Source of the DNA: a virus | Length of the DNA stretch: 64,000 nt | Reading direction: 5' to 3' (one strand) | Virus record (IMG/VR): IMGVR_UViG_3300029906_000004 | Location: 18,176 to 82,175 of that record | Shown here: positions 43,934 to 62,851 of the stretch, one piece after another | How the letters are laid out: each line of letters starts with the position of its first letter | Position numbering within the stretch: position 1 is the stretch's first letter | Made by a program: the position numbers and the translations under genes | Notes under the pieces: generated by a model | Told to the model about the DNA's origin: nothing | The model's input: the letters and a program-made list of their open reading frames with translations, nothing else | Database searches by the model: none

Positions 43934-43963
43934 AATTTTGATAATTAACGTTAATAATCTATT

Positions 43964-44008
43964 TGTAGTGTGGGAGGACTTGAACCTCCCTGTATGCCGT
44001 TACACTCC
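43964..44008 (-). ncRNA. Mini tRNA-like element (acceptor stem plus T-arm only)
   Basis: GGAGTGT/ACACTAC (6 of 7 pairs), GGGAGG-TTCAAGT-CCTCCC T-arm, A discriminator, short linker replacing the D and anticodon arms. Confidence 0.6.
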
Positions 44009-44312
44009 AGCTTTCTACGACATTAGCTTAGCCGTTCAGTCTATACTCACGCTACGCGAGAATAGTCTGTAACATAAGTTGTATTGCCACTTATTCGCAT
44101 TCTTAGCCTATTCATTACTGTGTCTGCGGATCAATACCTGTTAGGCCCTCGTAGAAGCCATTTTAAGGCGATTCTAGACACTTTCATTATCATCTAATAG
44201 GAATGTATTACTTTGTGTCTAAAATGTTTTAAACGGCTTAAAATGAGTGGACCTAGGTCGACTTGAACGACCGTCTCCTTCAGGCATATAATGACCTAAC
44301 AGCTAATTTCTC
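44009..44312 (-). ncRNA. ssrA: Circularly permuted two-piece tmRNA: acceptor piece ~44312-44248, intervening segment 44247-44149, coding piece 44148-~44009; tag (A)GNTTYVTDYSRVA
   Basis: GGGCCTA pairs with TAGGTCC-A giving a G3:U70 pair and A73. GAC-GGTCG-TTCAAGT-CGACC T-arm. Inter-piece helices TCC/GGA, TAATGA/TCATTA, GCTAA/TTAGC. AATAAGT-GGC resume context; the tag stop codon lies in a hairpin. Confidence 0.8.
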
Positions 44313-44477
44313 TTAAAAAGGAGTAGAAATTAATCTACTCCTTGGGGTTGACCACCTAGTAGTATAAATCGTGTCCATAGAGCTCTGGCGGAGGCTCTTG
44401 GACTACTACTGTTTTGTTGTCAGCAAACTGACATACATCACAATGAGTTTTATCACATTGTGACGGACAATCGTTCT

Positions 44478-55030: not shown

Positions 55031-55330
55031 ATGAATTATTATATTATAAACGGAGCAGTAGTAAGTCTTAAAGATAACAAAATAGGAAAAACAGAGAAAG
55101 GTTGGGTTAGCATTAATAATTGTCATCGCATTCCCGAAGACGGGACACTTGATGGTAAAGAAGTACATGCCGGAGATATTGTAATTACTACTTACAATGA
55201 CGAGTGTTTTATTATAGTTGATAAAGATTCTGCCTTTGCAGACGCAATAAATGCAGATATCGAAAATAGAGAGAAATACCTAGCGAACGGCCAAGTATCT
55301 GGTGAATGTGAAAGTTGTAGTCCCGCATAA
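55031..55330 (+). CDS. Hypothetical protein
   Basis: 99-aa ORF. Confidence 0.6.
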   Translation: MNYYIINGAVVSLKDNKIGKTEKGWVSINNCHRIPEDGTLDGKEVHAGDIVITTYNDECFIIVDKDSAFADAINADIENREKYLANGQVSGECESCSPA

Positions 55331-55878
55331 TGAAACTATTTGATATTTTGGCAGGTTCAGTTACAATCCACGAAGATGCTTTAGCGATACCAGCTTTTAA
55401 GAAAGTATGGGAACTTGATAAAGATAAAAAGCATGCTACTGACATACTTAGTTACATAGTCTTACAAAATAAATGGAATAGCCCGTATGTGACTTCGATA
55501 ATAGACGAGAACGAACGCGCTAAACGTCTAAAGCAGCAGTTCTTTAATGATTCTAACTATTCTCTTACTATAGAGGAGAAGCTTGCAGAAGATGAATTTA
55601 ACTTCTTACAGAATACTTCTACTCTTCAATTACTTAACAACATCAGACTTAAATTAAATAGTATTAGCGCTTACTATAAGGATTCTTTAGATGAAGAATT
55701 GAATGAAAAGAAGATTAAGGACTTATTAGCAGGTATGGCTAATGCTGATAAAGTATTAGAGTCTATTGAGCATTTAGAGGATAGAGTTAAAGCTGAAGAG
55801 AGTATGAAGTCTAAGAAAGTTAGAGGTGACGCTAAGATTAACCCGTTTGAGTTACCTACTCAGAATGTTGGGAAGTAA
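55330..55878 (+). CDS. Conserved crAss-like protein upstream of the terminase
   Basis: 182-aa ORF, TAATG coupling; function not assignable. Confidence 0.65.
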   Translation: MKLFDILAGSVTIHEDALAIPAFKKVWELDKDKKHATDILSYIVLQNKWNSPYVTSIIDENERAKRLKQQFFNDSNYSLTIEEKLAEDEFNFLQNTSTLQLLNNIRLKLNSISAYYKDSLDEELNEKKIKDLLAGMANADKVLESIEHLEDRVKAEESMKSKKVRGDAKINPFELPTQNVGK

Positions 55879-55889
55879 CAACAGAAATA

Positions 55890-55911
55890 AACCAATAATT
55901 ATTAATACGTT
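55890..55911 (+). promoter_or_regulatory. Putative ECF-sigma promoter AAC-N13-TACGTT
   Basis: Upstream of a 50-aa ORF, the suppressor tRNA, HNH and tRNA-Met. Confidence 0.6.
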
Positions 55912-55924
55912 AAAATAAACAGAT

Positions 55925-56077
55925 ATGGAAAAAGCAACAATGACACCTAATGTGATTTTAGATCTTACAGATGAAACTAAGACCGTTACTGAAGCTATTG
56001 CAGAATGCGAAGCTAATAGACAAAAGGTAATGCCTTGGTATAAGAAGATCGCTAAGCGAATCAAGCGCTTGTTTTAA
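55925..56077 (+). CDS. Small protein (50 aa) with amphipathic basic C-terminus
   Basis: MEKATMTPNV...PWYKKIAKRIKRLF. Confidence 0.5.
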   Translation: MEKATMTPNVILDLTDETKTVTEAIAECEANRQKVMPWYKKIAKRIKRLF

Positions 56078-56158
56078 GACTTATCAGGTGTGTAAGTCGA
56101 TTTTGTAAGCACCTGCTCCGCTACATGGACGGAGGGTAAATTAATATCCATGTTTCAT

Positions 56159-56234
56159 TTCGGGTTTGTGTATGAGGCTTAGCACACAACTCTCTAAAAG
56201 TTGAAGATCTGGAGCGAACCGGAACCCGGGACCA
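56159..56234 (+). tRNA. Amber suppressor tRNA (anticodon CTA), atypical
   Basis: 76 nt with encoded CCA. D stem GTGT/GCAC; anticodon stem CAACT/AGTTG with loop CT-CTA-AA; T stem TCTGG/CCGGA with non-canonical loop AGCGAA; acceptor stem TTCGGGT/ACCCGGG. Confidence 0.85.
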
Positions 56235-56275
56235 ATAATTCGCGTAGGTTAGAGATGCGCATAAATATATATATT

Positions 56276-56716
56276 ATGAATAAAATATGTACGAAATGCG
56301 GTATTGAAAAACCTATAGAAGAATTTTATAAAAACAAAACTAAACGTGACGGTCACAGTTCAATTTGCAAAGATTGTCAAAAAGAAGCAGATAGACGTTA
56401 TTATTTATCTAATAAAGATAAAGTAAGAGAAAGAGCTAAAAAATTCCACAAGAAAGTAATGAATTACGTAAATTCTAAAAAGAGCATTGGTTGTTATATT
56501 TGTGGCGAAAAAGATATATCTTGTTTAGACTTTCATCATTTAAGAGATAAAGTAACAGAAATTGCTAAATTAATTGGTAATGATAATCTCACTCAAATAA
56601 AAACTGAAATAGATAAATGTGTAGTACTTTGCGCAAACTGTCATAGAAAATTACACTATTACAATTTAAGTTTAGAAGAATTAAAGCAGCAAGTTTCCGT
56701 TCCTAGTGCTGCTTAA
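56276..56716 (+). CDS. HNH endonuclease with Zn-finger
   Basis: CTKC...CKDC, CYIC...LDFHH...CANCHRKLH. Start revised to ATG 56276. Confidence 0.85.
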   Translation: MNKICTKCGIEKPIEEFYKNKTKRDGHSSICKDCQKEADRRYYLSNKDKVRERAKKFHKKVMNYVNSKKSIGCYICGEKDISCLDFHHLRDKVTEIAKLIGNDNLTQIKTEIDKCVVLCANCHRKLHYYNLSLEELKQQVSVPSAA

Positions 56717-56852
56717 ACTAACAGAAGTATGGCGCGCATACAACGTAAATACCTAAGTCACTTACTGAGTAATTAACAGTAAATACAGCTAATCAAGGTC
56801 CGAATCGTAAGTCGGCGAGTTGTGAGGAGTTCTCGTATAAGCCTCACTAGAT

Positions 56853-56924
56853 CGCGGGTTGGAGAAGTGGTATCTCATCAGGCTCATAATCTGAAGATCG
56901 CAGGTCCGAATCCTGCACCCGCAA
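56853..56924 (+). tRNA. tRNA-Met(CAT), initiator-like
   Basis: C1:A72 mismatch and CT-CAT-AA loop; the anticodon stem lacks the usual three G-C pairs. Confidence 0.85.
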
Positions 56925-57027
56925 CAATTTTAGCCGAAAGGCTCTTCTTTGATTTTTTATCATAAAAAAAGAAAGGGGGTTCGTTGTGAAACGCACCCCT
57001 TTTATTATAACTTTTTCCATATATAAA

Positions 57028-57255
57028 ATGAAGATTAATAAATAGAAAATAATACGCAATATTAAACTTTTTCTATTAGCAACATACGTGTTTGCAGCAA
57101 TAGGCTCTAGTTCTGTAGCGATTAAATCAGATGAACTTTACTTTGTAATATGTGGTATAGCTAATTTAGTAGGTAACTTCTATAATATGTTTACTATAGG
57201 ACATGAACTAATTTACCTAAAAGGAGTAGAAAAGAGGAAGAAAGAACATGATTGA
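57028..57255 (+). CDS. Two-TM small membrane protein (holin-like), TAG at codon 6
   Basis: MKINK(TAG)KIIRNIKLFLLATYVFAAIG...YFVICGIANLVGNFY...KRKKEHD. Confidence 0.55.
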
Positions 57256-60200
57256 TTTTACTAAGAAAATACATTAGAGTGATAAATTTCGTCAGCCAGC
57301 CTTAACGTATATTAGGACTGGCTAGTATTGTTAGTATCCTAAAGGTACTTCAGAATACATGAACTACTGGTCTACAGAATAGGATAGGTGCATCAATGGT
57401 TATACTGCTGATGATGGAGATTTCATTAGCGGGTATAACTATTTTTATTTGAACTACTGCCCTATACTTAGGATTGTCAATAAAGAGGTAAACGGTAAAG
57501 TTAAAGCTGTATCAGAAGTAACCTTTCCAGATTTTTGGGATTATGACTATTACTATTTCTAGACAGTAGAAGAGGCTCAATTACAAGGTAAACATTTATG
57601 TGTTCTAAAAAGTAGAAGACGTGGGTATAGTTATAAAGCTGCATCTATGATGTGTCGTAATTATTATCTTGTGCCTAATACTTCTTCATACGTATACGCT
57701 TCAAATAAGCAGTATTTAACAGACGACGGGGTGCTTACTAAAGCGTGGAACTATATGGACTTTATAGATGAACACACTGCTTGGGGTAAAAAGAGAACGG
57801 TTAATACCCAATTACGCCGTAGAGCTGGTATGTGGGTTAAAGATGAATACGGCAATCAAATAGAAGTAGGTTATAAATCTGAGATTATTGGTGTCACTTT
57901 AAAGGATAATCCGGATGTTGGTCACCCGTATGATCAAATAGTTTATACTCCCGAAGGTAAGAAGAAATGGGAAGATATCACAGTTGGATCAAAGTTATTT
58001 GATTCTAGAGGAGGAATTACGACTGTTACTGAAGTAAATGAACTTGGTAAAGTACCTGTGTATAGACTCACATTAAGCGACGGTAGAATTGTAGAAGCTA
58101 CGGCGGATCACAAGTGGAGAATATTCCGGTATAGGCATAAGCAACATAGTTGGAACGGTAAAAACGAAAAAAGAGAAATAAGAGAAATCGAGCTCACTAC
58201 TGAAGAAATATTTGGGCTTACTAAAAACAAGTCTTATAAGACGAATAGATGCAGAATTAAGACTAGATTCTCGGTACCGTTTAATCATCAAGAAGTTCCT
58301 ATTGATGCGTATACAATGGGGTTCTTATTAGGAGACGGTAGTCTTACTAAGACTTCTAATCATAAGGCTTACTTTGTTCAGTCTGCAGAAGATTATGAAA
58401 GCATAAAGCATTTATTCCCCTATAAAGTAGATAAACAATATGGTATTACTTATGCTGTTAACATACCCAACGCTAAACAGATAATTAAAGATCTCGGCTT
58501 ACTAGATAAAACTTCTGATAATAAATTTATTCCAGATTGTTATAAATATAATAGTGAAGAAATAAGAATTGCTGTATTAAACGGGTTGTTAGATACAGAC
58601 GGTAGTATTACTAAAGACTATGGGGTAATAGAATACGTAAGTAAATCTTATCAACTCGCACAAGATGTAAGATGGCTATTGTTTAGTTTAGGTATAAATA
58701 ATTCTTTACATATTAAATATATAAAAGGAATCCCTTATTATAGAGTATACGTATACTGTTCTGGAGAAGAACACAGGTTATTTTGCATTCCTAGAAAAAA
58801 AGAAAGAATTTCTATTAAGAAATCGACTCCCTTTGCTCTTAGCAAAGTCCAATATACATATATTGATAAAGTAGAAAAAATAGAAGATAAAGTATCCAAA
58901 TGCGTTACAGTTGACGCGGAAGATCATGTGTACATGATTGGAGATTTTATTGAAACTAAGAACTGTCGTGGTAAACGTGCAAACTTAATTCTATTTGAAG
59001 AAGCTGGATCGTTTAAGGAACTTTCAGCCGCTTGGCAAATAGCTCGTCCCTCGGTTGAAATTGACGGTAGAGCTTTCGCCACGATGATAGCATACGGCAC
59101 CGGAGGAGACGAAGAATCTAACTTCTTTACTCTAAAAGACATGTTCTATCATCCTGAAGGATACAATTGTTTAGCGTTGCCTAATATATGGGATGAAAAC
59201 GTATCAAATACGTCGTGTGGTTTTTTCGTTCCGTAGTATACTAATATGGACTTACGTGACGATCAAGGTAAACGTCTTTATATGGACAAAGACGGTAATA
59301 CTCTTACTATACCTGCTCGTCAATACATACTAGAAGAAAGACGTAAAGTAATAGAAAACTCTACTAATTCTGTAGCAGTAGACAGATATGTTGCAGAAAG
59401 ACCTATTACTCCTGCTGAAGCGTGTCTAGAATTTAATGGCAATATATTCCCTAAAAAAGAATTACAAGAGCAACTAGGTAAGATACGTACTAATAAGTTA
59501 TTAAGTAATCATAAGCAGATTGGGGATCTTATTTGGGAGTCAGACGGTAGTCTTAAATGGCTCTTAAAGAAGAGCGGTGATATTACTCATTATCCTCTTA
59601 ATAAGAATGATGATCCTACCGGTTCTATCGTTATATGGGAACATCCTGTAAAAGACGCTCCTATAGGTTTATATATAATCGGCGTTGACCCTTACGATCA
59701 TGATCAATCCGGTACTAATTCGTTAGGTTCTTGTTTTGTTTATAAACGGTTTTAGAATTTTGAGAATTACTATGATTTAATAGTAGCTGAATATACAGGA
59801 AGACCTTCTACGGCAGAAGAATTTTATGAAAACGTACGTAAGTTAGCAATATACTACAATGCCCATATAATGTATGAAAATCAGAATAAAGGACTATTTC
59901 CTTACTTCGTAGCTAAACATTGTGACTATTTACTCGCTGATTAGCCTGATATACTTAATGATATTATTGGTAGCAGTAAAGTAAACCGTAAAAAGGGTTG
60001 TCATATGAATAAGTAGATTAAACAGTGGGGAGAAGGTCTTATTAAGGACTGGCTCAATGACGAGAAAGCTCCTGGTCATAAAAATCTACACGATATACTA
60101 TCAGAGCCATTGCTAGAAGAACTAATTAGTTATAACGACATTGGCAACTTTGACCGCGTAATGGCTCTAATTTAGGTAATGATATATAGAGAACAACTCT

Positions 60201-60334
60201 ACAATATAGTAGTAAAAGAAAAAAAGAAACAAAATAAAAGTAGGTTACTATTCGACGGACCTATTTTTAATGAAGATTCATGGTATGACGATATTGTGAA
60301 TAACGTCGAAGAAGATGTATATACATTTAATTAA
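57248..60334 (+). CDS. terL: Terminase large subunit with intein, TAG-recoded (~1028 aa precursor)
   Basis: KSRRRGYSYK, RGKRANLILFEEAG, YIIGVDPYD, YENQ and FDRVMAL motifs. Track fragments 57647 and 59246 share the frame and are joined across TAGs. Confidence 0.9.
57920..58963 (+). mobile_element. Class 3 intein (348 aa) with LAGLIDADG endonuclease
   Basis: Starts GHPYDQIVYTPEG; block B TADHKW; block F KCVTV; block G IETKN followed by Cys+1; GFLLGDG and NGLLDTDG motifs. Confidence 0.88.
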
Positions 60335-60340
60335 CAGAAT

Positions 60341-62851
60341 ATGATAAGTAGAAACTTAGATTCGATGCCTCTTTAGAAGCTTCCTATGAGTAAAAAGACA
60401 AAGGAATGGCGAGAGGCAAATTTAGACTATATTATCGGTAAATCCGGATTTACTAGTGGTCTTGGCAATAATGGTTCTACTAAGTATGAGGAAATGTAGA
60501 CGTACTATAATCTATATAACAGTATATATGATGAGAAAGACTTACTGTACGTTACTAATCCTTTCAAGTAGAAAGACGGATTCCCTGCAACTGCACAAGA
60601 CTATAATATAATTAAGCCTAAAGTAGACTTACTATTAGGTGAAGAGACTAAACGTCCTTTTAACTTTAGAGTAGTACGTACTAGTGATGACGCTACTAGT
60701 GAAGTACAAGAAACTGCTAAGCAAATGCTTACTGATTATATAATGGCTACTGTAATGAGTAAGCTAGGTCCTGAAGAAGCGTAGAGATATCAAGAAGCAT
60801 TGTAGTCAGGTGAGATAATGCCTCCTGAGGCAATATAGAAATATCTTAGTAAAGATTATAAAGATATTGCAGAAACTACTGCATAGCATACCTTAAATTA
60901 TTTAAAGAATAAGCTTAATGTTACGCACGAGTTTTTTAAAGGGTGGAAAGATGCTTTAATAGCTGGTGAAGAAGTATATTACGTTGGTATTATTAACGGT
61001 AATCCTTACTTAGAAAGAGTCAATCCTTTATTCTTCAGTTATGATCAATAGGCTGATTTGGAATTCATTCATGATGCAGATTGGTGCTGCAGAAAGATGA
61101 TTATGTCTGCTACTTAGATATATGATAGATTCTATGATAAAATGTCTGAGAAGCAGTTAAACTAGCTCCTAGAAATGATTGAAGATACTGGTAGAGGAGG
61201 TATTAATCCAGAGGTGCGTAAGACTTCTCTAGATTATCCTCATATCAAAACCCATACTATTGGTGGATTTACTACTAATCCGTTTGATGACGTAGATGAC
61301 ATTAACGTATGGCATTGCTGCTGGAAATCCTTTAAAAAGATAGGTTTTGTCACTTACATAGATCCTGAGACAGGTGTGCCTGATGAACTATAGGTAGACG
61401 AATCTTATAAAGTAACTGGTAACGAATTAAACGTGGAATGGACTTGGATTATTGAAGTATGGGAAGGATATAGAGTTGGAGAAGATTTGTACATTGGTAT
61501 TCAACCTTTAGACTACCAACACGTATCTGCAGATAATCCTAATTCGTAGAAATTACCTTATACCGGTGTAGTATATAATAATACCAATAGTAGACCTAGG
61601 TCTTTAGTAAGCATGATGAAGCCTTTACAATATATGTATATTGTACTATGGTATAGATTGGAATTAGCAATGGCTAGAGATAAAGGTAAGATACCTGTAG
61701 TAGACGTTACTCAGATACCTAAAGACATGGGTATTGACGTTAATAAATGGATGCACTACTTATCTGCTCTTGGTGTGATGTTTATCAACCCTTATGAAGA
61801 AGGTTGGGATATACCTGGTAGAGAAGGAGGTAAACCTAGCTAGTTTAATCAATTTACCGCTCTAGATCTTACTATGGCTCCTGTAATTGATCAGTATATC
61901 AACTTAATGGCTAAGATTGAAGATATGGCATCTGAAATTACTGGAGTAAGTAAACAGCGAGAAGGGGCTATTTCGTCTAATGAGCTCGTCGGTAATGTAG
62001 AACGAAGTGTAATTCAATCAGCCCACATTACTGAACCTTGGTTCTGGGTGCATAATCAAGTAAAGAAAGAAGTACTTACTATGCTGTTAGACACTTCTAA
62101 AGAAGCTTGGAAAGGTAATAAGCGTTGTTTACATTATATACTAGACGATGCTACTAGAGCTTTTCTTACTTTGTCAGATTCGTTCTTCTACGAGGATATG
62201 GACGTATTCTTAGATGATTCTACGAAGAATCAACAGCAGATAGAAGCTCTCAGGAACCTTATGCAACCTGCTATGCAGAATGGTGCTAGCCTACTTGACA
62301 TAGCTGAGATTATTACTATGGATAATGTCAACATGATTAAGAATAGGCTCGAAGAAATTGAGCAAAAACGTATGCAACAACAACAAGCTATGGAGGAGGC
62401 TCAAGCTCAACGTGAACAGCAAGCTATTCAAATGCAGAATGAGATTAAGGAAGAAGAGCTAATGATTAAGGAAGCCGAGATGGATCTTAAGAAGTACGAG
62501 ATCGATCAGAATAATCAGACTAAGATTGTAGTAGCTCAACTTAATGCTTATAGAGGTAGTGAGAATTAGGACGTTGACTAGAACGGCGTACCTGATGTTT
62601 TGGAGATAGGAAAACAAGCTCTAGAGCAATAGAAGATTAATTCAGATGCTGCTGCTAAGCAATTAGAACTCAATAATAAGCGTAGAGAGACTGAGATGAA
62701 ACGTGAGATTGAGAATAAGAAGATTGAGTTAGAGAAGCAGCGTATGAAACAAGAAATAGAGCTTTAGAAGATGAAAGATGAAGAAGCTTATAAACGTGAA
62801 CAATTAAAAGCCCGCACTGCAATTCGCAATAAAGTATCGGGTGAAAAGTAA
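60341..62851 (+). CDS. Portal protein (~836 aa), TAG-recoded
   Basis: Directly after TerL. NYNIIKPKVDLLLGEE, WKDALIAGEE, GVSKQREG motifs; track fragments 61175, 61613 and 61874 are in this frame. Confidence 0.88.

What the first reader, a model, noticed from the sequence alone, without database searches (positions are those of the whole stretch)
56159..56234. Structurally aberrant amber-suppressor tRNA
Seen: anticodon CTA in a clean cloverleaf, but the T-loop is a 6-nt AGCGAA instead of TTCRANY, the top two acceptor pairs are U:G, and the discriminator is A. It is the only tRNA in the window with an encoded CCA. Known: suppressor tRNAs accompany code-15 gut phages, and E. coli GlnRS identity includes G73, G2-C71 and G3-C70, which this tRNA lacks. 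Inference: it may be missed or called pseudo by scanners, and may need a different or phage-encoded synthetase (none in this window), or evade host tRNA-targeting defences.
Basis: partly seen in the sequence, partly recalled or inferred. Interest (0 to 1): 0.68.

Follow-up and report, generated by a model that had tools for sequence, protein, structure and literature searches.

The report
Odd-elbow amber suppressor tRNA gene
This gut crAss-like phage writes glutamine as the stop codon TAG in its late genes and carries one real TAG-reading tRNA whose T-loop is abnormal and one base short, so standard tRNA finders miss it, which helps explain why many recoded phages seem to lack a suppressor tRNA.

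Summary
Window 56159-56234 (+) folds into a regular cloverleaf with anticodon CTA, a 6-nt T-loop AGCGAA, U1:G72 and U2:G71, A73 and an encoded CCA.

ARAGORN in standard mode and the Rfam tRNA model both miss it. It is nevertheless a genuine gene. It sits where related Suoliviridae phages keep their annotated CTA tRNA (small ORF, tRNA, HNH, tRNA-Met, TerL).

It belongs to a family of at least 11 distinct sequences with T-loop AGC(N)GAA and D-loop AUGA..GCUUAG. Every helix covaries: 100% of cells pair and 13 of 21 pairs change on both sides. Three different 6-nt-loop sequences, from at least four assemblies, differ from each other by compensatory pairs, so the short loop is a selected lineage trait and not an error or decay.

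The complete 103-kb genome has about 179 in-frame TAGs in the window alone. It has no other CTA tRNA, no synthetase or amidotransferase domain of the families searched, and no release factor. TAG aligns with Gln.

The family was found only on phage-type contigs, only with CTA, and not in GenBank phage records. Defence evasion remains untested.

This scan has already reported similar remodelled-elbow suppressors on other genomes. The new points here are the 6-nt loop and cassette-like swapping of tRNA types behind a conserved structured leader.

The parts
56159..56234 (+). tRNA(CUA) amber suppressor, 76 nt, cloverleaf 7/2/4/10/4/1/5/7/5/4/5/6/5/7/1/CCA
   Evidence: Sequence read and fold. ARAGORN -mt calls it. 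The family covariance model R1 scores it 91.5 bits, the only hit in the genome. Covariation supports every helix.
56194..56196 (+). Anticodon CTA inside the loop CTCTAAA (56192-56198)
   Evidence: CTA is invariant in all family members. An anticodon-free pattern returns only CTA carriers.
56213..56218 (+). 6-nt T-loop AGCGAA with A54 and G55 in place of T54 and Psi55; the usual family form is the 7-nt AGCAGAA
   Evidence: Alignment A4. The same 6-nt loop occurs in L012/L043 and in L070/L071.
56172..56181 (+). D-loop AUGAGGCUUA, the shortest in the family; the family motif is AUGA..GCUUAG
   Evidence: Alignment A4. The 10-nt D-loop occurs only with the 6-nt T-loop. 7-nt T-loops go with D-loops of 11-12 nt.
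56117..56153 (+). Conserved leader with two interleaved helices: S1 is 56117-56121 with 56131-56135, S2 is 56124-56130 with 56147-56153. It is shared by all tRNA types at this slot.
   Evidence: Alignment A5. 99.2% of cells pair and 6 of 12 pairs change on both sides, with 0 of 500 shuffles as high. Homology with L066 ends at 56153.
55925..56077 (+). 50-codon ORF upstream; a syntenic neighbour of the suppressor in relatives
55330..55878 (+). 182-aa protein of unknown function, TAG-free; used as the synteny anchor
56276..56716 (+). Free-standing HNH endonuclease inserted between the suppressor and the spacer that leads to tRNA-Met
   Evidence: PHROG 2255, E = 3.5e-33. It is absent at this place in L027, L029 and L032.
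56853..56925 (+). tRNA-Met(CAT), the second tRNA of the unit
57248..60334 (+). TerL with a LAGLIDADG intein; the first TAG-containing gene downstream (10 in-frame TAGs)
60341..62851 (+). Portal gene with 17 in-frame TAGs, used to infer TAG = Gln

Best explanation
56159-56234 is the phage's own, functional amber-suppressor tRNA. It lies at the end of a standard-code gene block and just upstream of the TAG-containing packaging and structural genes. Inferred steps: it is transcribed behind a conserved structured leader; host RNase P and 3' trimming mature it to its encoded CCA; host GlnRS charges it with glutamine, which fits the CUA anticodon (U35) and the weak U1:G72 pair; EF-Tu delivers it so that UAG is read as Gln in late genes, in competition with host RF1. 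It is a member of a phage-specific suppressor subfamily in which the D-loop/T-loop elbow has been rebuilt (T-loop AGC(N)GAA, D-loop AUGA..GCUUAG). In this lineage the T-loop has additionally lost one base. That rebuilt elbow is why standard tRNA models fail to find it.
For: 1. Need: the window holds about 179 in-frame TAGs in late ORFs, including 84 in one 4532-aa ORF. The genome is complete, with direct terminal repeats and 100% CheckV completeness.
2. It is the sole candidate. ARAGORN, Rfam and the family model find no other CTA tRNA in the 103 kb.
3. Synteny: cr125_1 and cr114_1 have an annotated tRNA-Gln with anticodon CTA in the same place. So do 14 further contigs reached through the neighbouring protein.
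4. Structure under selection: across 9-10 distinct family sequences, 100% of 189 cells pair and 13 of 21 pairs change on both sides, with 0 of 500 shuffles as high. Slid controls pair in only 32-49% of cells. RNAalifold finds the same cloverleaf on its own.
5. The 6-nt loop is not an error or decay. The window, L012/L043 and L070/L071 share it. The window differs from L012 at 9 positions, 8 of which form 4 compensatory pairs. It differs from L070 at 3 positions, including one compensatory pair.
6. The tRNA is 88-96% identical to those copies, while the flanks are 55-82% identical.
7. TAG = Gln: 54 of 133 residues (41%) opposite the window's 17 portal TAGs are Gln, against a 6.4% background. 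TAG replaces invariant Gln in p182 of relatives.
8. All carriers tested have in-frame TAG in TerL.
9. The complete genome has no synthetase, amidotransferase or release-factor domain of the families searched. B. thetaiotaomicron, like E. coli, lacks GatB and GatA among the control genomes, so a Bacteroides-type host would use GlnRS directly.
Against: A 6-membered T-loop without U54 and U55 is far from the bacterial elongator consensus, and its fitness for RNase P, EF-Tu and the ribosome is assumed rather than shown. The acceptor stem lacks the E. coli GlnRS elements G73, G2-C71 and G3-C70. The host and its tRNA-Gln were not identified. Part of the family was collected with a pattern that fixed the T-arm, the end of the D-loop and CTA, so invariance of those motifs is partly by ascertainment. 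However, L031, L034, L035 and L070 were reached through the neighbouring protein and show the same motifs. One portal TAG lies opposite an almost invariant Tyr.
Confidence: 0.85

Rival explanations
1. It is a decaying relic of the canonical suppressor. The one-base T-loop deletion inactivated it, and TAG is read by a host suppressor or some other mechanism.
For: Standard tRNA models reject it. The T-loop is one base shorter than in the rest of its own family. Papers allow for host-encoded suppressors (PMC7886860).
Against: Three distinct 6-nt-loop sequences keep every pair through compensatory changes that arose after the deletion. The loops are invariant, while the flanks diverge to 55-82% identity. 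The anticodon, CCA, U8 and A14 are intact.
Confidence: 0.07
2. It is a real decoding tRNA, but it is charged with a residue other than Gln or by an enzyme other than host GlnRS.
For: A73, U2:G71 and C3:G70 differ from E. coli tRNA-Gln identity (established knowledge). Class II-type CTA tRNAs occupy the same slot in L030 and L036. One portal TAG lies opposite a conserved Tyr.
Against: Gln is enriched sixfold opposite the window's TAGs. TAG replaces invariant Gln in carriers of types a, b and c. Metaproteomics has shown TAG = Gln in crAss-like phages (PMC9523058, abstract). No phage synthetase or amidotransferase domain of the families searched was found.
Confidence: 0.08
3. It is a tRNA-like element with a non-decoding role, such as an RNase P processing signal for the operon, an attachment site or a primer.
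For: It lies in a structured, highly conserved non-coding unit made of the leader, the spacer block and tRNA-Met.
Against: The anticodon loop and CTA are invariant, and the architecture occurs only with CTA and only in TAG-recoded phages. A processing or attachment element would not need this. Different CTA tRNA types replace each other at the slot, so the shared requirement is the CUA anticodon.
Confidence: 0.03

Closest known systems
Annotated tRNA-Gln(CUA) suppressors of Suoliviridae crAss-like phages (cr125_1 KNV58_gt002, cr114_1 KNV55_gt002)
   Same: They occupy the same syntenic slot before HNH, tRNA-Met and TerL. They share the anticodon loop YUCUAAA/C, U1 with a weak or mismatched 1:72 pair, A73, an encoded CCA and a TAG-recoded genome. 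The family model scores them 41-48 bits.
   Different: They have the normal T-loop UUCGA(A/G)N and a G18G19-type D-loop, and ARAGORN calls them. Other canonical copies at this slot reach the Rfam cut-off (L032 and L029). The window's gene has AGCGAA (6 nt) and is missed by both.
Phage suppressor tRNAs of stop-codon-recoded phages in general (Yutin 2021, PMC7886860; Borges 2021, bioRxiv 10.1101/2021.08.26.457843)
   Same: A phage-borne CUA tRNA sits at the boundary between standard-code and recoded late genes, TAG is read as Gln, and host charging is assumed.
   Different: [quoted passage not shown] This is a concrete family of that kind.
tRNA-Pyl
   Same: It has anticodon CUA, and its D- and T-loops lack the G18G19 and T-Psi-C motifs (PMC7609411).
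   Different: tRNA-Pyl has a small 5-nt D-loop and a single connecting nucleotide between the acceptor and D stems (PMC7609411); a 6-bp anticodon stem and 3-nt variable loop are recalled, not checked here. The window's gene has the standard 7/2/4/../5/7/5/4/5 layout with a 10-nt D-loop. Its TAG codons align with Gln.
Type II mitochondrial tRNAs
   Same: The G18G19 and T-Psi-C motifs are not conserved, and only ARAGORN's mitochondrial mode recognises the gene (PMC7609411).
   Different: The window's gene has stable GC-containing stems, full-size loops and an encoded CCA, and it is a phage gene working in a bacterial translation system.
Eukaryotic initiator tRNA T-loop (A54, A60)
   Same: It has A at position 54 instead of T54. 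This is recalled from memory and was not tested.
   Different: The initiator keeps Psi55 and a 7-nt loop and is not an elongator.

Membership tests
tRNA (cloverleaf; Rfam RF00005) | Four helices of 7, 4, 5 and 5 bp with standard spacing and a 7-nt anticodon loop | tested here: met
   Covariation gives 100% paired cells and 13 of 21 pairs changed on both sides.
tRNA (cloverleaf; Rfam RF00005) | 7-nt T-loop with T54-Psi55-C56 (UUCRANY) | tested here: not met
   The loop is AGCGAA, 6 nt; only C56 is kept.
tRNA (cloverleaf; Rfam RF00005) | U8, A14, U33 and a discriminator followed by CCA | tested here: met
   T8 and A14 are invariant in the family. The window has U33, A73 and CCA.
tRNA (cloverleaf; Rfam RF00005) | G18G19 in the D-loop | tested here: inconclusive
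   The window has GG in AUGAGGCUUA, but the family has G-N(1-2)-G, so the motif is not conserved as such.
tRNA (cloverleaf; Rfam RF00005) | Score at or above the 29-bit gathering threshold | tested here: not met
   There is no hit even at E <= 10 on 1.2 kb. None of seven other family members passes.
Phage amber-suppressor tRNA (code 15) | Anticodon CUA in a genome with in-frame TAG in late genes | tested here: met
Phage amber-suppressor tRNA (code 15) | Orthologous position to annotated suppressors | tested here: met
Phage amber-suppressor tRNA (code 15) | TAG corresponds to Gln | tested here: met
   41% Gln opposite the window's TAGs against a 6.4% background.
Phage amber-suppressor tRNA (code 15) | Aminoacylation and read-through activity | not testable with these tools
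   This needs an experiment.
E. coli-type GlnRS substrate | G73, G2-C71 and G3-C70 | tested here: not met
   The gene has A73, U2:G71 and C3:G70. The identity set itself comes from established knowledge of E. coli GlnRS.
E. coli-type GlnRS substrate | Weak 1:72 pair, U35 and G10 | tested here: met
   U1:G72 is invariant in the family. U35 lies in CUA. The window has G10.
tRNA-Pyl | Small 5-nt D-loop and one nucleotide between the acceptor and D stems (PMC7609411); 6-bp anticodon stem and 3-nt variable loop (recalled) | tested here: not met
   The gene has a 5-bp anticodon stem, a 4-nt variable loop, a 10-nt D-loop and two connecting nucleotides.

The most novel reading that the evidence does not exclude
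The AGC(N)GAA T-loop and GCUUAG D-loop form a rebuilt elbow. This could be a short loop-loop helix of G19-C56, C20-G55 and U20a-A54 that replaces the T54/Psi55 architecture. It would make the suppressor invisible to T-loop-directed tRNA nucleases such as the UUC-specific CRISPR-associated Schlafen enzyme, and to T-loop modification enzymes. On this reading, the suppressor slot behind its conserved pseudoknot-like leader is an arms-race cassette in which unrelated CUA tRNA bodies (class I, class II, intron-split, rebuilt elbow) are swapped. The 6-nt variant would also show that bacterial RNase P, EF-Tu and ribosomes accept a six-membered T-loop for routine decoding of hundreds of codons.
Probability: 0.2. 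Interest if true: 0.85.

Novelty: new variant of a known kind. Interest (0 to 1): 0.62.

Why it matters
Two large surveys found suppressor tRNAs in only about 40% of TAG-recoded phages and guessed that non-canonical ones escape detection (PMC7886860; bioRxiv 10.1101/2021.08.26.457843). A 2026 preprint still reports amber-reassigned Crassvirales with no suppressor (10.64898/2026.08.21.746148).

Here is a defined, covariation-supported family of that kind, together with a covariance model (R1) that finds it. The missing-suppressor question can now be tested by rescanning recoded phage genomes.

The family is also a natural example of an elongator-type tRNA that apparently works in bacteria without T54 and Psi55, and in one lineage with a 6-nt T-loop. 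That is relevant to tRNA structural biology and to the design of orthogonal suppressor tRNAs.

The swapping of at least five different CUA tRNA types behind one conserved leader suggests strong, still unidentified selection on the suppressor body.

Tried and rejected
- The search for related loci with the single 182-aa protein in IMG/VR found no relatives.
- The 16-mer T-arm pattern gave 12 chance hits and one true hit, L012.
- The D-arm 18-mer found only L012.
- A loops-only pattern gave 11 chance hits without a cloverleaf.
- ARAGORN -mt is too permissive to count as evidence: 38 calls per 103 kb, including a second, spurious cta call inside a coding ORF.
- Single-sequence folding energy is uninformative (z = -0.28).
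- tRNAscan-SE is not available here.
- I could not fetch a Bacteroidota tRNA-Gln, so host identity rules were not compared.
- I considered and rejected tRNA-Pyl because the architecture does not fit, and an intron-split canonical tRNA at this locus because ARAGORN's intron mode gave only implausible calls.
- My first impression that ARAGORN's tmRNA call at 43956-44339 was spurious is withdrawn.
- The loop-loop helix idea cannot be tested within the family, because both trinucleotides are invariant.

Full report
**Observation.** Window 56159-56234 (+) reads as a 76-nt cloverleaf.
- Acceptor stem TTCGGGT/ACCCGGG, with U1:G72 and U2:G71.
- Two connecting bases, then D-stem GTGT/GCAC with a 10-nt loop, then A26.
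- Anticodon stem CAACT/AGTTG with loop CTCTAAA; the anticodon CTA is at 56194-56196.
- Variable loop AAGA.
- T-stem TCTGG/CCGGA with the 6-nt loop AGCGAA (56213-56218).
- A73 and an encoded CCA.

The minimum-energy fold is this cloverleaf, but it is no more stable than shuffled sequence (z = -0.28). The other four tRNAs of the window have no encoded CCA.

**Scanners.**
- ARAGORN does not call the gene at default settings, at ps80 on the whole genome, or at ps50 on the locus.
- The Rfam tRNA model gives no hit at the gathering score, or at E <= 10 on 1.2 kb.
- ARAGORN's metazoan-mitochondrial mode calls exactly these coordinates. That mode makes 38 calls in this genome, so the call alone is not evidence.

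**Context.** The window is bases 18176-82175 of a complete 103,003-bp phage genome with direct terminal repeats.
- TAG is a sense codon in the late genes. Reading TAG as Gln opens a 4532-aa ORF with 84 TAGs, a 1392-aa ORF with 47, TerL with 10 and portal with 17. That makes about 179 TAGs in the window. TGA=W opens nothing.
- The + strand genes 51081-56716 upstream of the tRNA are TAG-free.
- The genes that follow are an HNH endonuclease, tRNA-Met, an intein-containing TerL and portal.
- The nearest GenBank genomes are Suoliviridae crAss-like phages.

**Orthology.** In cr125_1 and cr114_1 the same gene order holds a tRNA annotated tRNA-Gln with anticodon CTA and a normal T-loop. The order is a 180-aa protein, a 50-codon ORF, the tRNA, a homing endonuclease, tRNA-Met and TerL. 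I reached 14 further contigs through homologues of the 182-aa neighbour, which does not bias the tRNA sequence. All contigs that extend through the slot carry a CTA tRNA there.

**The tRNA at this slot comes in several types.**
- (a) Canonical class I: L001, L002, L029, L032, L068, L069.
- (b) Class II-like, 91 nt, with a long variable arm: L030, L036.
- (c) The AGC(N)GAA T-loop family: the window, L012, L031, L034, L035, L070/L071.
- (d) A canonical type split in the anticodon loop by a probable group I intron: L027/L028 (RF00028, 26.6 bits, E = 8e-5).
- Another variant with C33: L066.

The type does not follow the identity of the neighbouring protein. The 97%-identical L066 has a different type. 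Its homology with the window, 89.7% over 824 nt, stops at 56153, six bases before the tRNA's first base.

**The family.** Pattern scans that left the acceptor, anticodon and most D-stem bases free added members from IMG/VR, metagenomes and two rabbit-gut MAG bins.
- Ten distinct sequences form alignment A4, and L070/L071 add an eleventh.
- All have U1:G72, U8, A14, D-loop AUGA..GCUUAG, anticodon CTA, T-stem YCUGG/CCGGR, T-loop AGC(A/U)GAA or AGCGAA, and A73.
- All but two have an encoded CCA.
- On the nine sequences of A3, 100% of 189 cells pair and 13 of 21 pairs change on both sides. 0 of 500 shuffles reach this, and slid controls pair in only 32-49% of cells.
- RNAalifold predicts the same structure unaided.
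- Caveat: four T-stem pairs, the end of the D-loop and CTA were fixed by my pattern. However, the members reached through the protein neighbour (L031, L034, L035, L070) show the same motifs.

**The 6-nt loop.** AGCGAA occurs in three distinct sequences: the window, L012 (identical to L043) and L070 (identical to L071). These come from at least four assemblies.
- The window and L012 differ at nine positions. Eight of these form four compensatory pairs (4:69 and three anticodon-stem pairs). The ninth is the unpaired base 26.
- The window and L070 differ at three positions, including a compensatory 6:67 pair.
- The helices were therefore kept under selection after the deletion arose. This excludes an assembly error and argues strongly against a pseudogene.
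- The 6-nt T-loop always goes with the shortest D-loop (10 nt), and 7-nt T-loops go with 11-12 nt. This may be co-adaptation or merely shared ancestry.

**Detectability and distribution.**
- None of seven other family members reaches the Rfam cut-off. Canonical type (a) copies do, at 30.8 and 46.7 bits.
- ARAGORN at default finds 3 of 9 members and at ps90 finds 7 of 9. It never finds the 6-nt copies.
- A covariance model of the family (R1) gives one hit in this genome, at 91.5 bits. It gives about 90-100 bits for the family members searched, 36-48 bits for most canonical suppressors (L069 only 22), 25 bits for class II suppressors, and nothing for the window's other tRNAs.
- Ten RefSeq Suoliviridae genomes hold no family member.
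- blastn of the commonest member finds nothing in 50,697 GenBank phage records.
- In 596 Gb of cellular genomes an anticodon-free pattern hits only two ~98.9-kb contigs, phage-genome-sized and carrying in-frame TAGs. In IMG/VR it returns the same loci as the CTA-constrained pattern.
- The architecture is therefore seen only on phage-type contigs and only with CUA.

**Which residue.**
- Opposite the window's 17 portal TAGs, nine Suoliviridae portals have Gln in 54 of 133 aligned residues (41%), against a 6.4% background. In 19 further cells they have TAG themselves.
- In the 182-aa gene of relatives, TAG replaces invariant Gln in carriers of types a, b and c.
- All carriers have in-frame TAG in TerL.
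- The genome has no domain of the GlnRS/GluRS, class IIb synthetase, GatB, amidase or RF-1 families.
- In the control genomes, B. thetaiotaomicron lacks GatB and GatA, as E. coli does. A Bacteroides-type host therefore makes Gln-tRNA directly with GlnRS.
- Charging by host GlnRS is thus the simplest inference. The invariant weak U1:G72 pair and U35 fit what is known of GlnRS recognition, while A73, U2:G71 and C3:G70 do not fit the E. coli rules. A73 is also found in the canonical class I CTA tRNAs at this slot, two of them annotated tRNA-Gln.

**Literature.**
- Yutin et al. note imperfect agreement between recoding and detectable suppressors, and suggest extremely divergent suppressors (PMC7886860).
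- A 2026 preprint reports an amber-reassigned Crassvirales phage without a suppressor and cites a Suoliviridae case (10.64898/2026.08.21.746148).
- I found no paper describing this T-loop family.
- A CRISPR-associated Schlafen nuclease cleaves tRNAs at the T-loop UUC motif and is blocked by U54 or U55 mutations (PMC13462974). This makes the defence-evasion idea concrete. Against it, the Arg and both Leu tRNAs of this phage keep UUC.

**Earlier notes of this scan.** Remodelled-elbow amber and opal suppressors have been reported on other genomes, and one note concerns the sequence I call L038. These are unverified leads, and my evidence above is independent of them. The additions here are the 6-nt loop lineage, the evidence for selection after the deletion, the restriction of the architecture to CUA, and the cassette-like exchange behind a conserved leader.

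**Verdict.** This is a genuine suppressor tRNA of a known functional kind in a new structural variant. Its function as a Gln-inserting amber decoder is inferred, not shown.

Noticed in passing
window 56085-56153: A ~75-nt leader just upstream of the suppressor is more conserved than the neighbouring genes and is shared by all tRNA types. It contains two interleaved helices (56117-56121 with 56131-56135, and 56124-56130 with 56147-56153) in H-type pseudoknot topology. 99.2% of cells pair and 6 of 12 pairs change on both sides. It could instead be a promoter or operator: AAG-N13-TACGTG resembles a motif noted by another reader.
   Followed up: partly
L030:3332-3422, L036:3345-3435, L066:3355-3431: The suppressor slot holds unrelated CTA tRNA bodies in close relatives. 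These include a 91-nt class II-like tRNA with a long variable arm and a C33 variant ending ACTA. Homology with the 97%-related L066 ends at window 56153, so the tRNA body is exchanged like a cassette.
   Followed up: partly
L027:3335-3775 (also L028): A canonical-type CTA suppressor is split inside its anticodon loop (CTCT | ~330 nt | AAC) by a probable group I intron (RF00028, 26.6 bits, E = 8e-5, below the cut-off). The anticodon would exist only after splicing.
   Followed up: partly
window 56717-56852: The spacer between the HNH gene and tRNA-Met is nearly identical in L012 and L027, although the coding flanks diverge. It contains a hairpin, GTATG-GCGCG-CATAC, that covaries (GTACA/TGTAC in L027; GTATC/GATAC in L029 and L032). 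It may be a structured RNA or a processing element. No Rfam family matches.
   Followed up: no
window 56276-56716: A free-standing HNH endonuclease is inserted between the suppressor and the spacer. It is absent in L027, L029 and L032, and a GIY-YIG gene lies nearby in L027 and L069. Homing enzymes may drive the cassette exchange.
   Followed up: no
window 56853-56925: tRNA-Met(CAT) has the T-loop UCCGAAU, with C55 in place of the near-universal U55. In L012 the tRNA-Met appears to be interrupted after its 5' half by an insertion carrying another HNH gene.
   Followed up: no
window 45620-45732 (-): A Hatchet ribozyme match at 96.9 bits (cut-off 51, E = 2.6e-19).
   Followed up: no
window 43956-44339 (-): ARAGORN calls a permuted tmRNA with tag peptide GNTTYVTDYSRVA. 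I did not test it.
   Followed up: no
window 57248-60334: TerL carries a LAGLIDADG intein (PF14528, E = 3e-11). Relatives have TerL with or without it (680 aa against about 1030-1050 aa).
   Followed up: no
window 60341-62851: One of the 17 portal TAGs (alignment column 182) lies opposite Tyr in 8 of 9 relatives. TAG is one transition from TAT or TAC. This may be a recent mutation that is tolerated because it is read as Gln.
   Followed up: no
L038:4422-4500 (-), also L041, L044-L047, L049, L063: In another group of ~100-kb phage contigs the same odd-T-loop suppressor lies directly behind another tRNA, in an array, and without the leader element.
   Followed up: no
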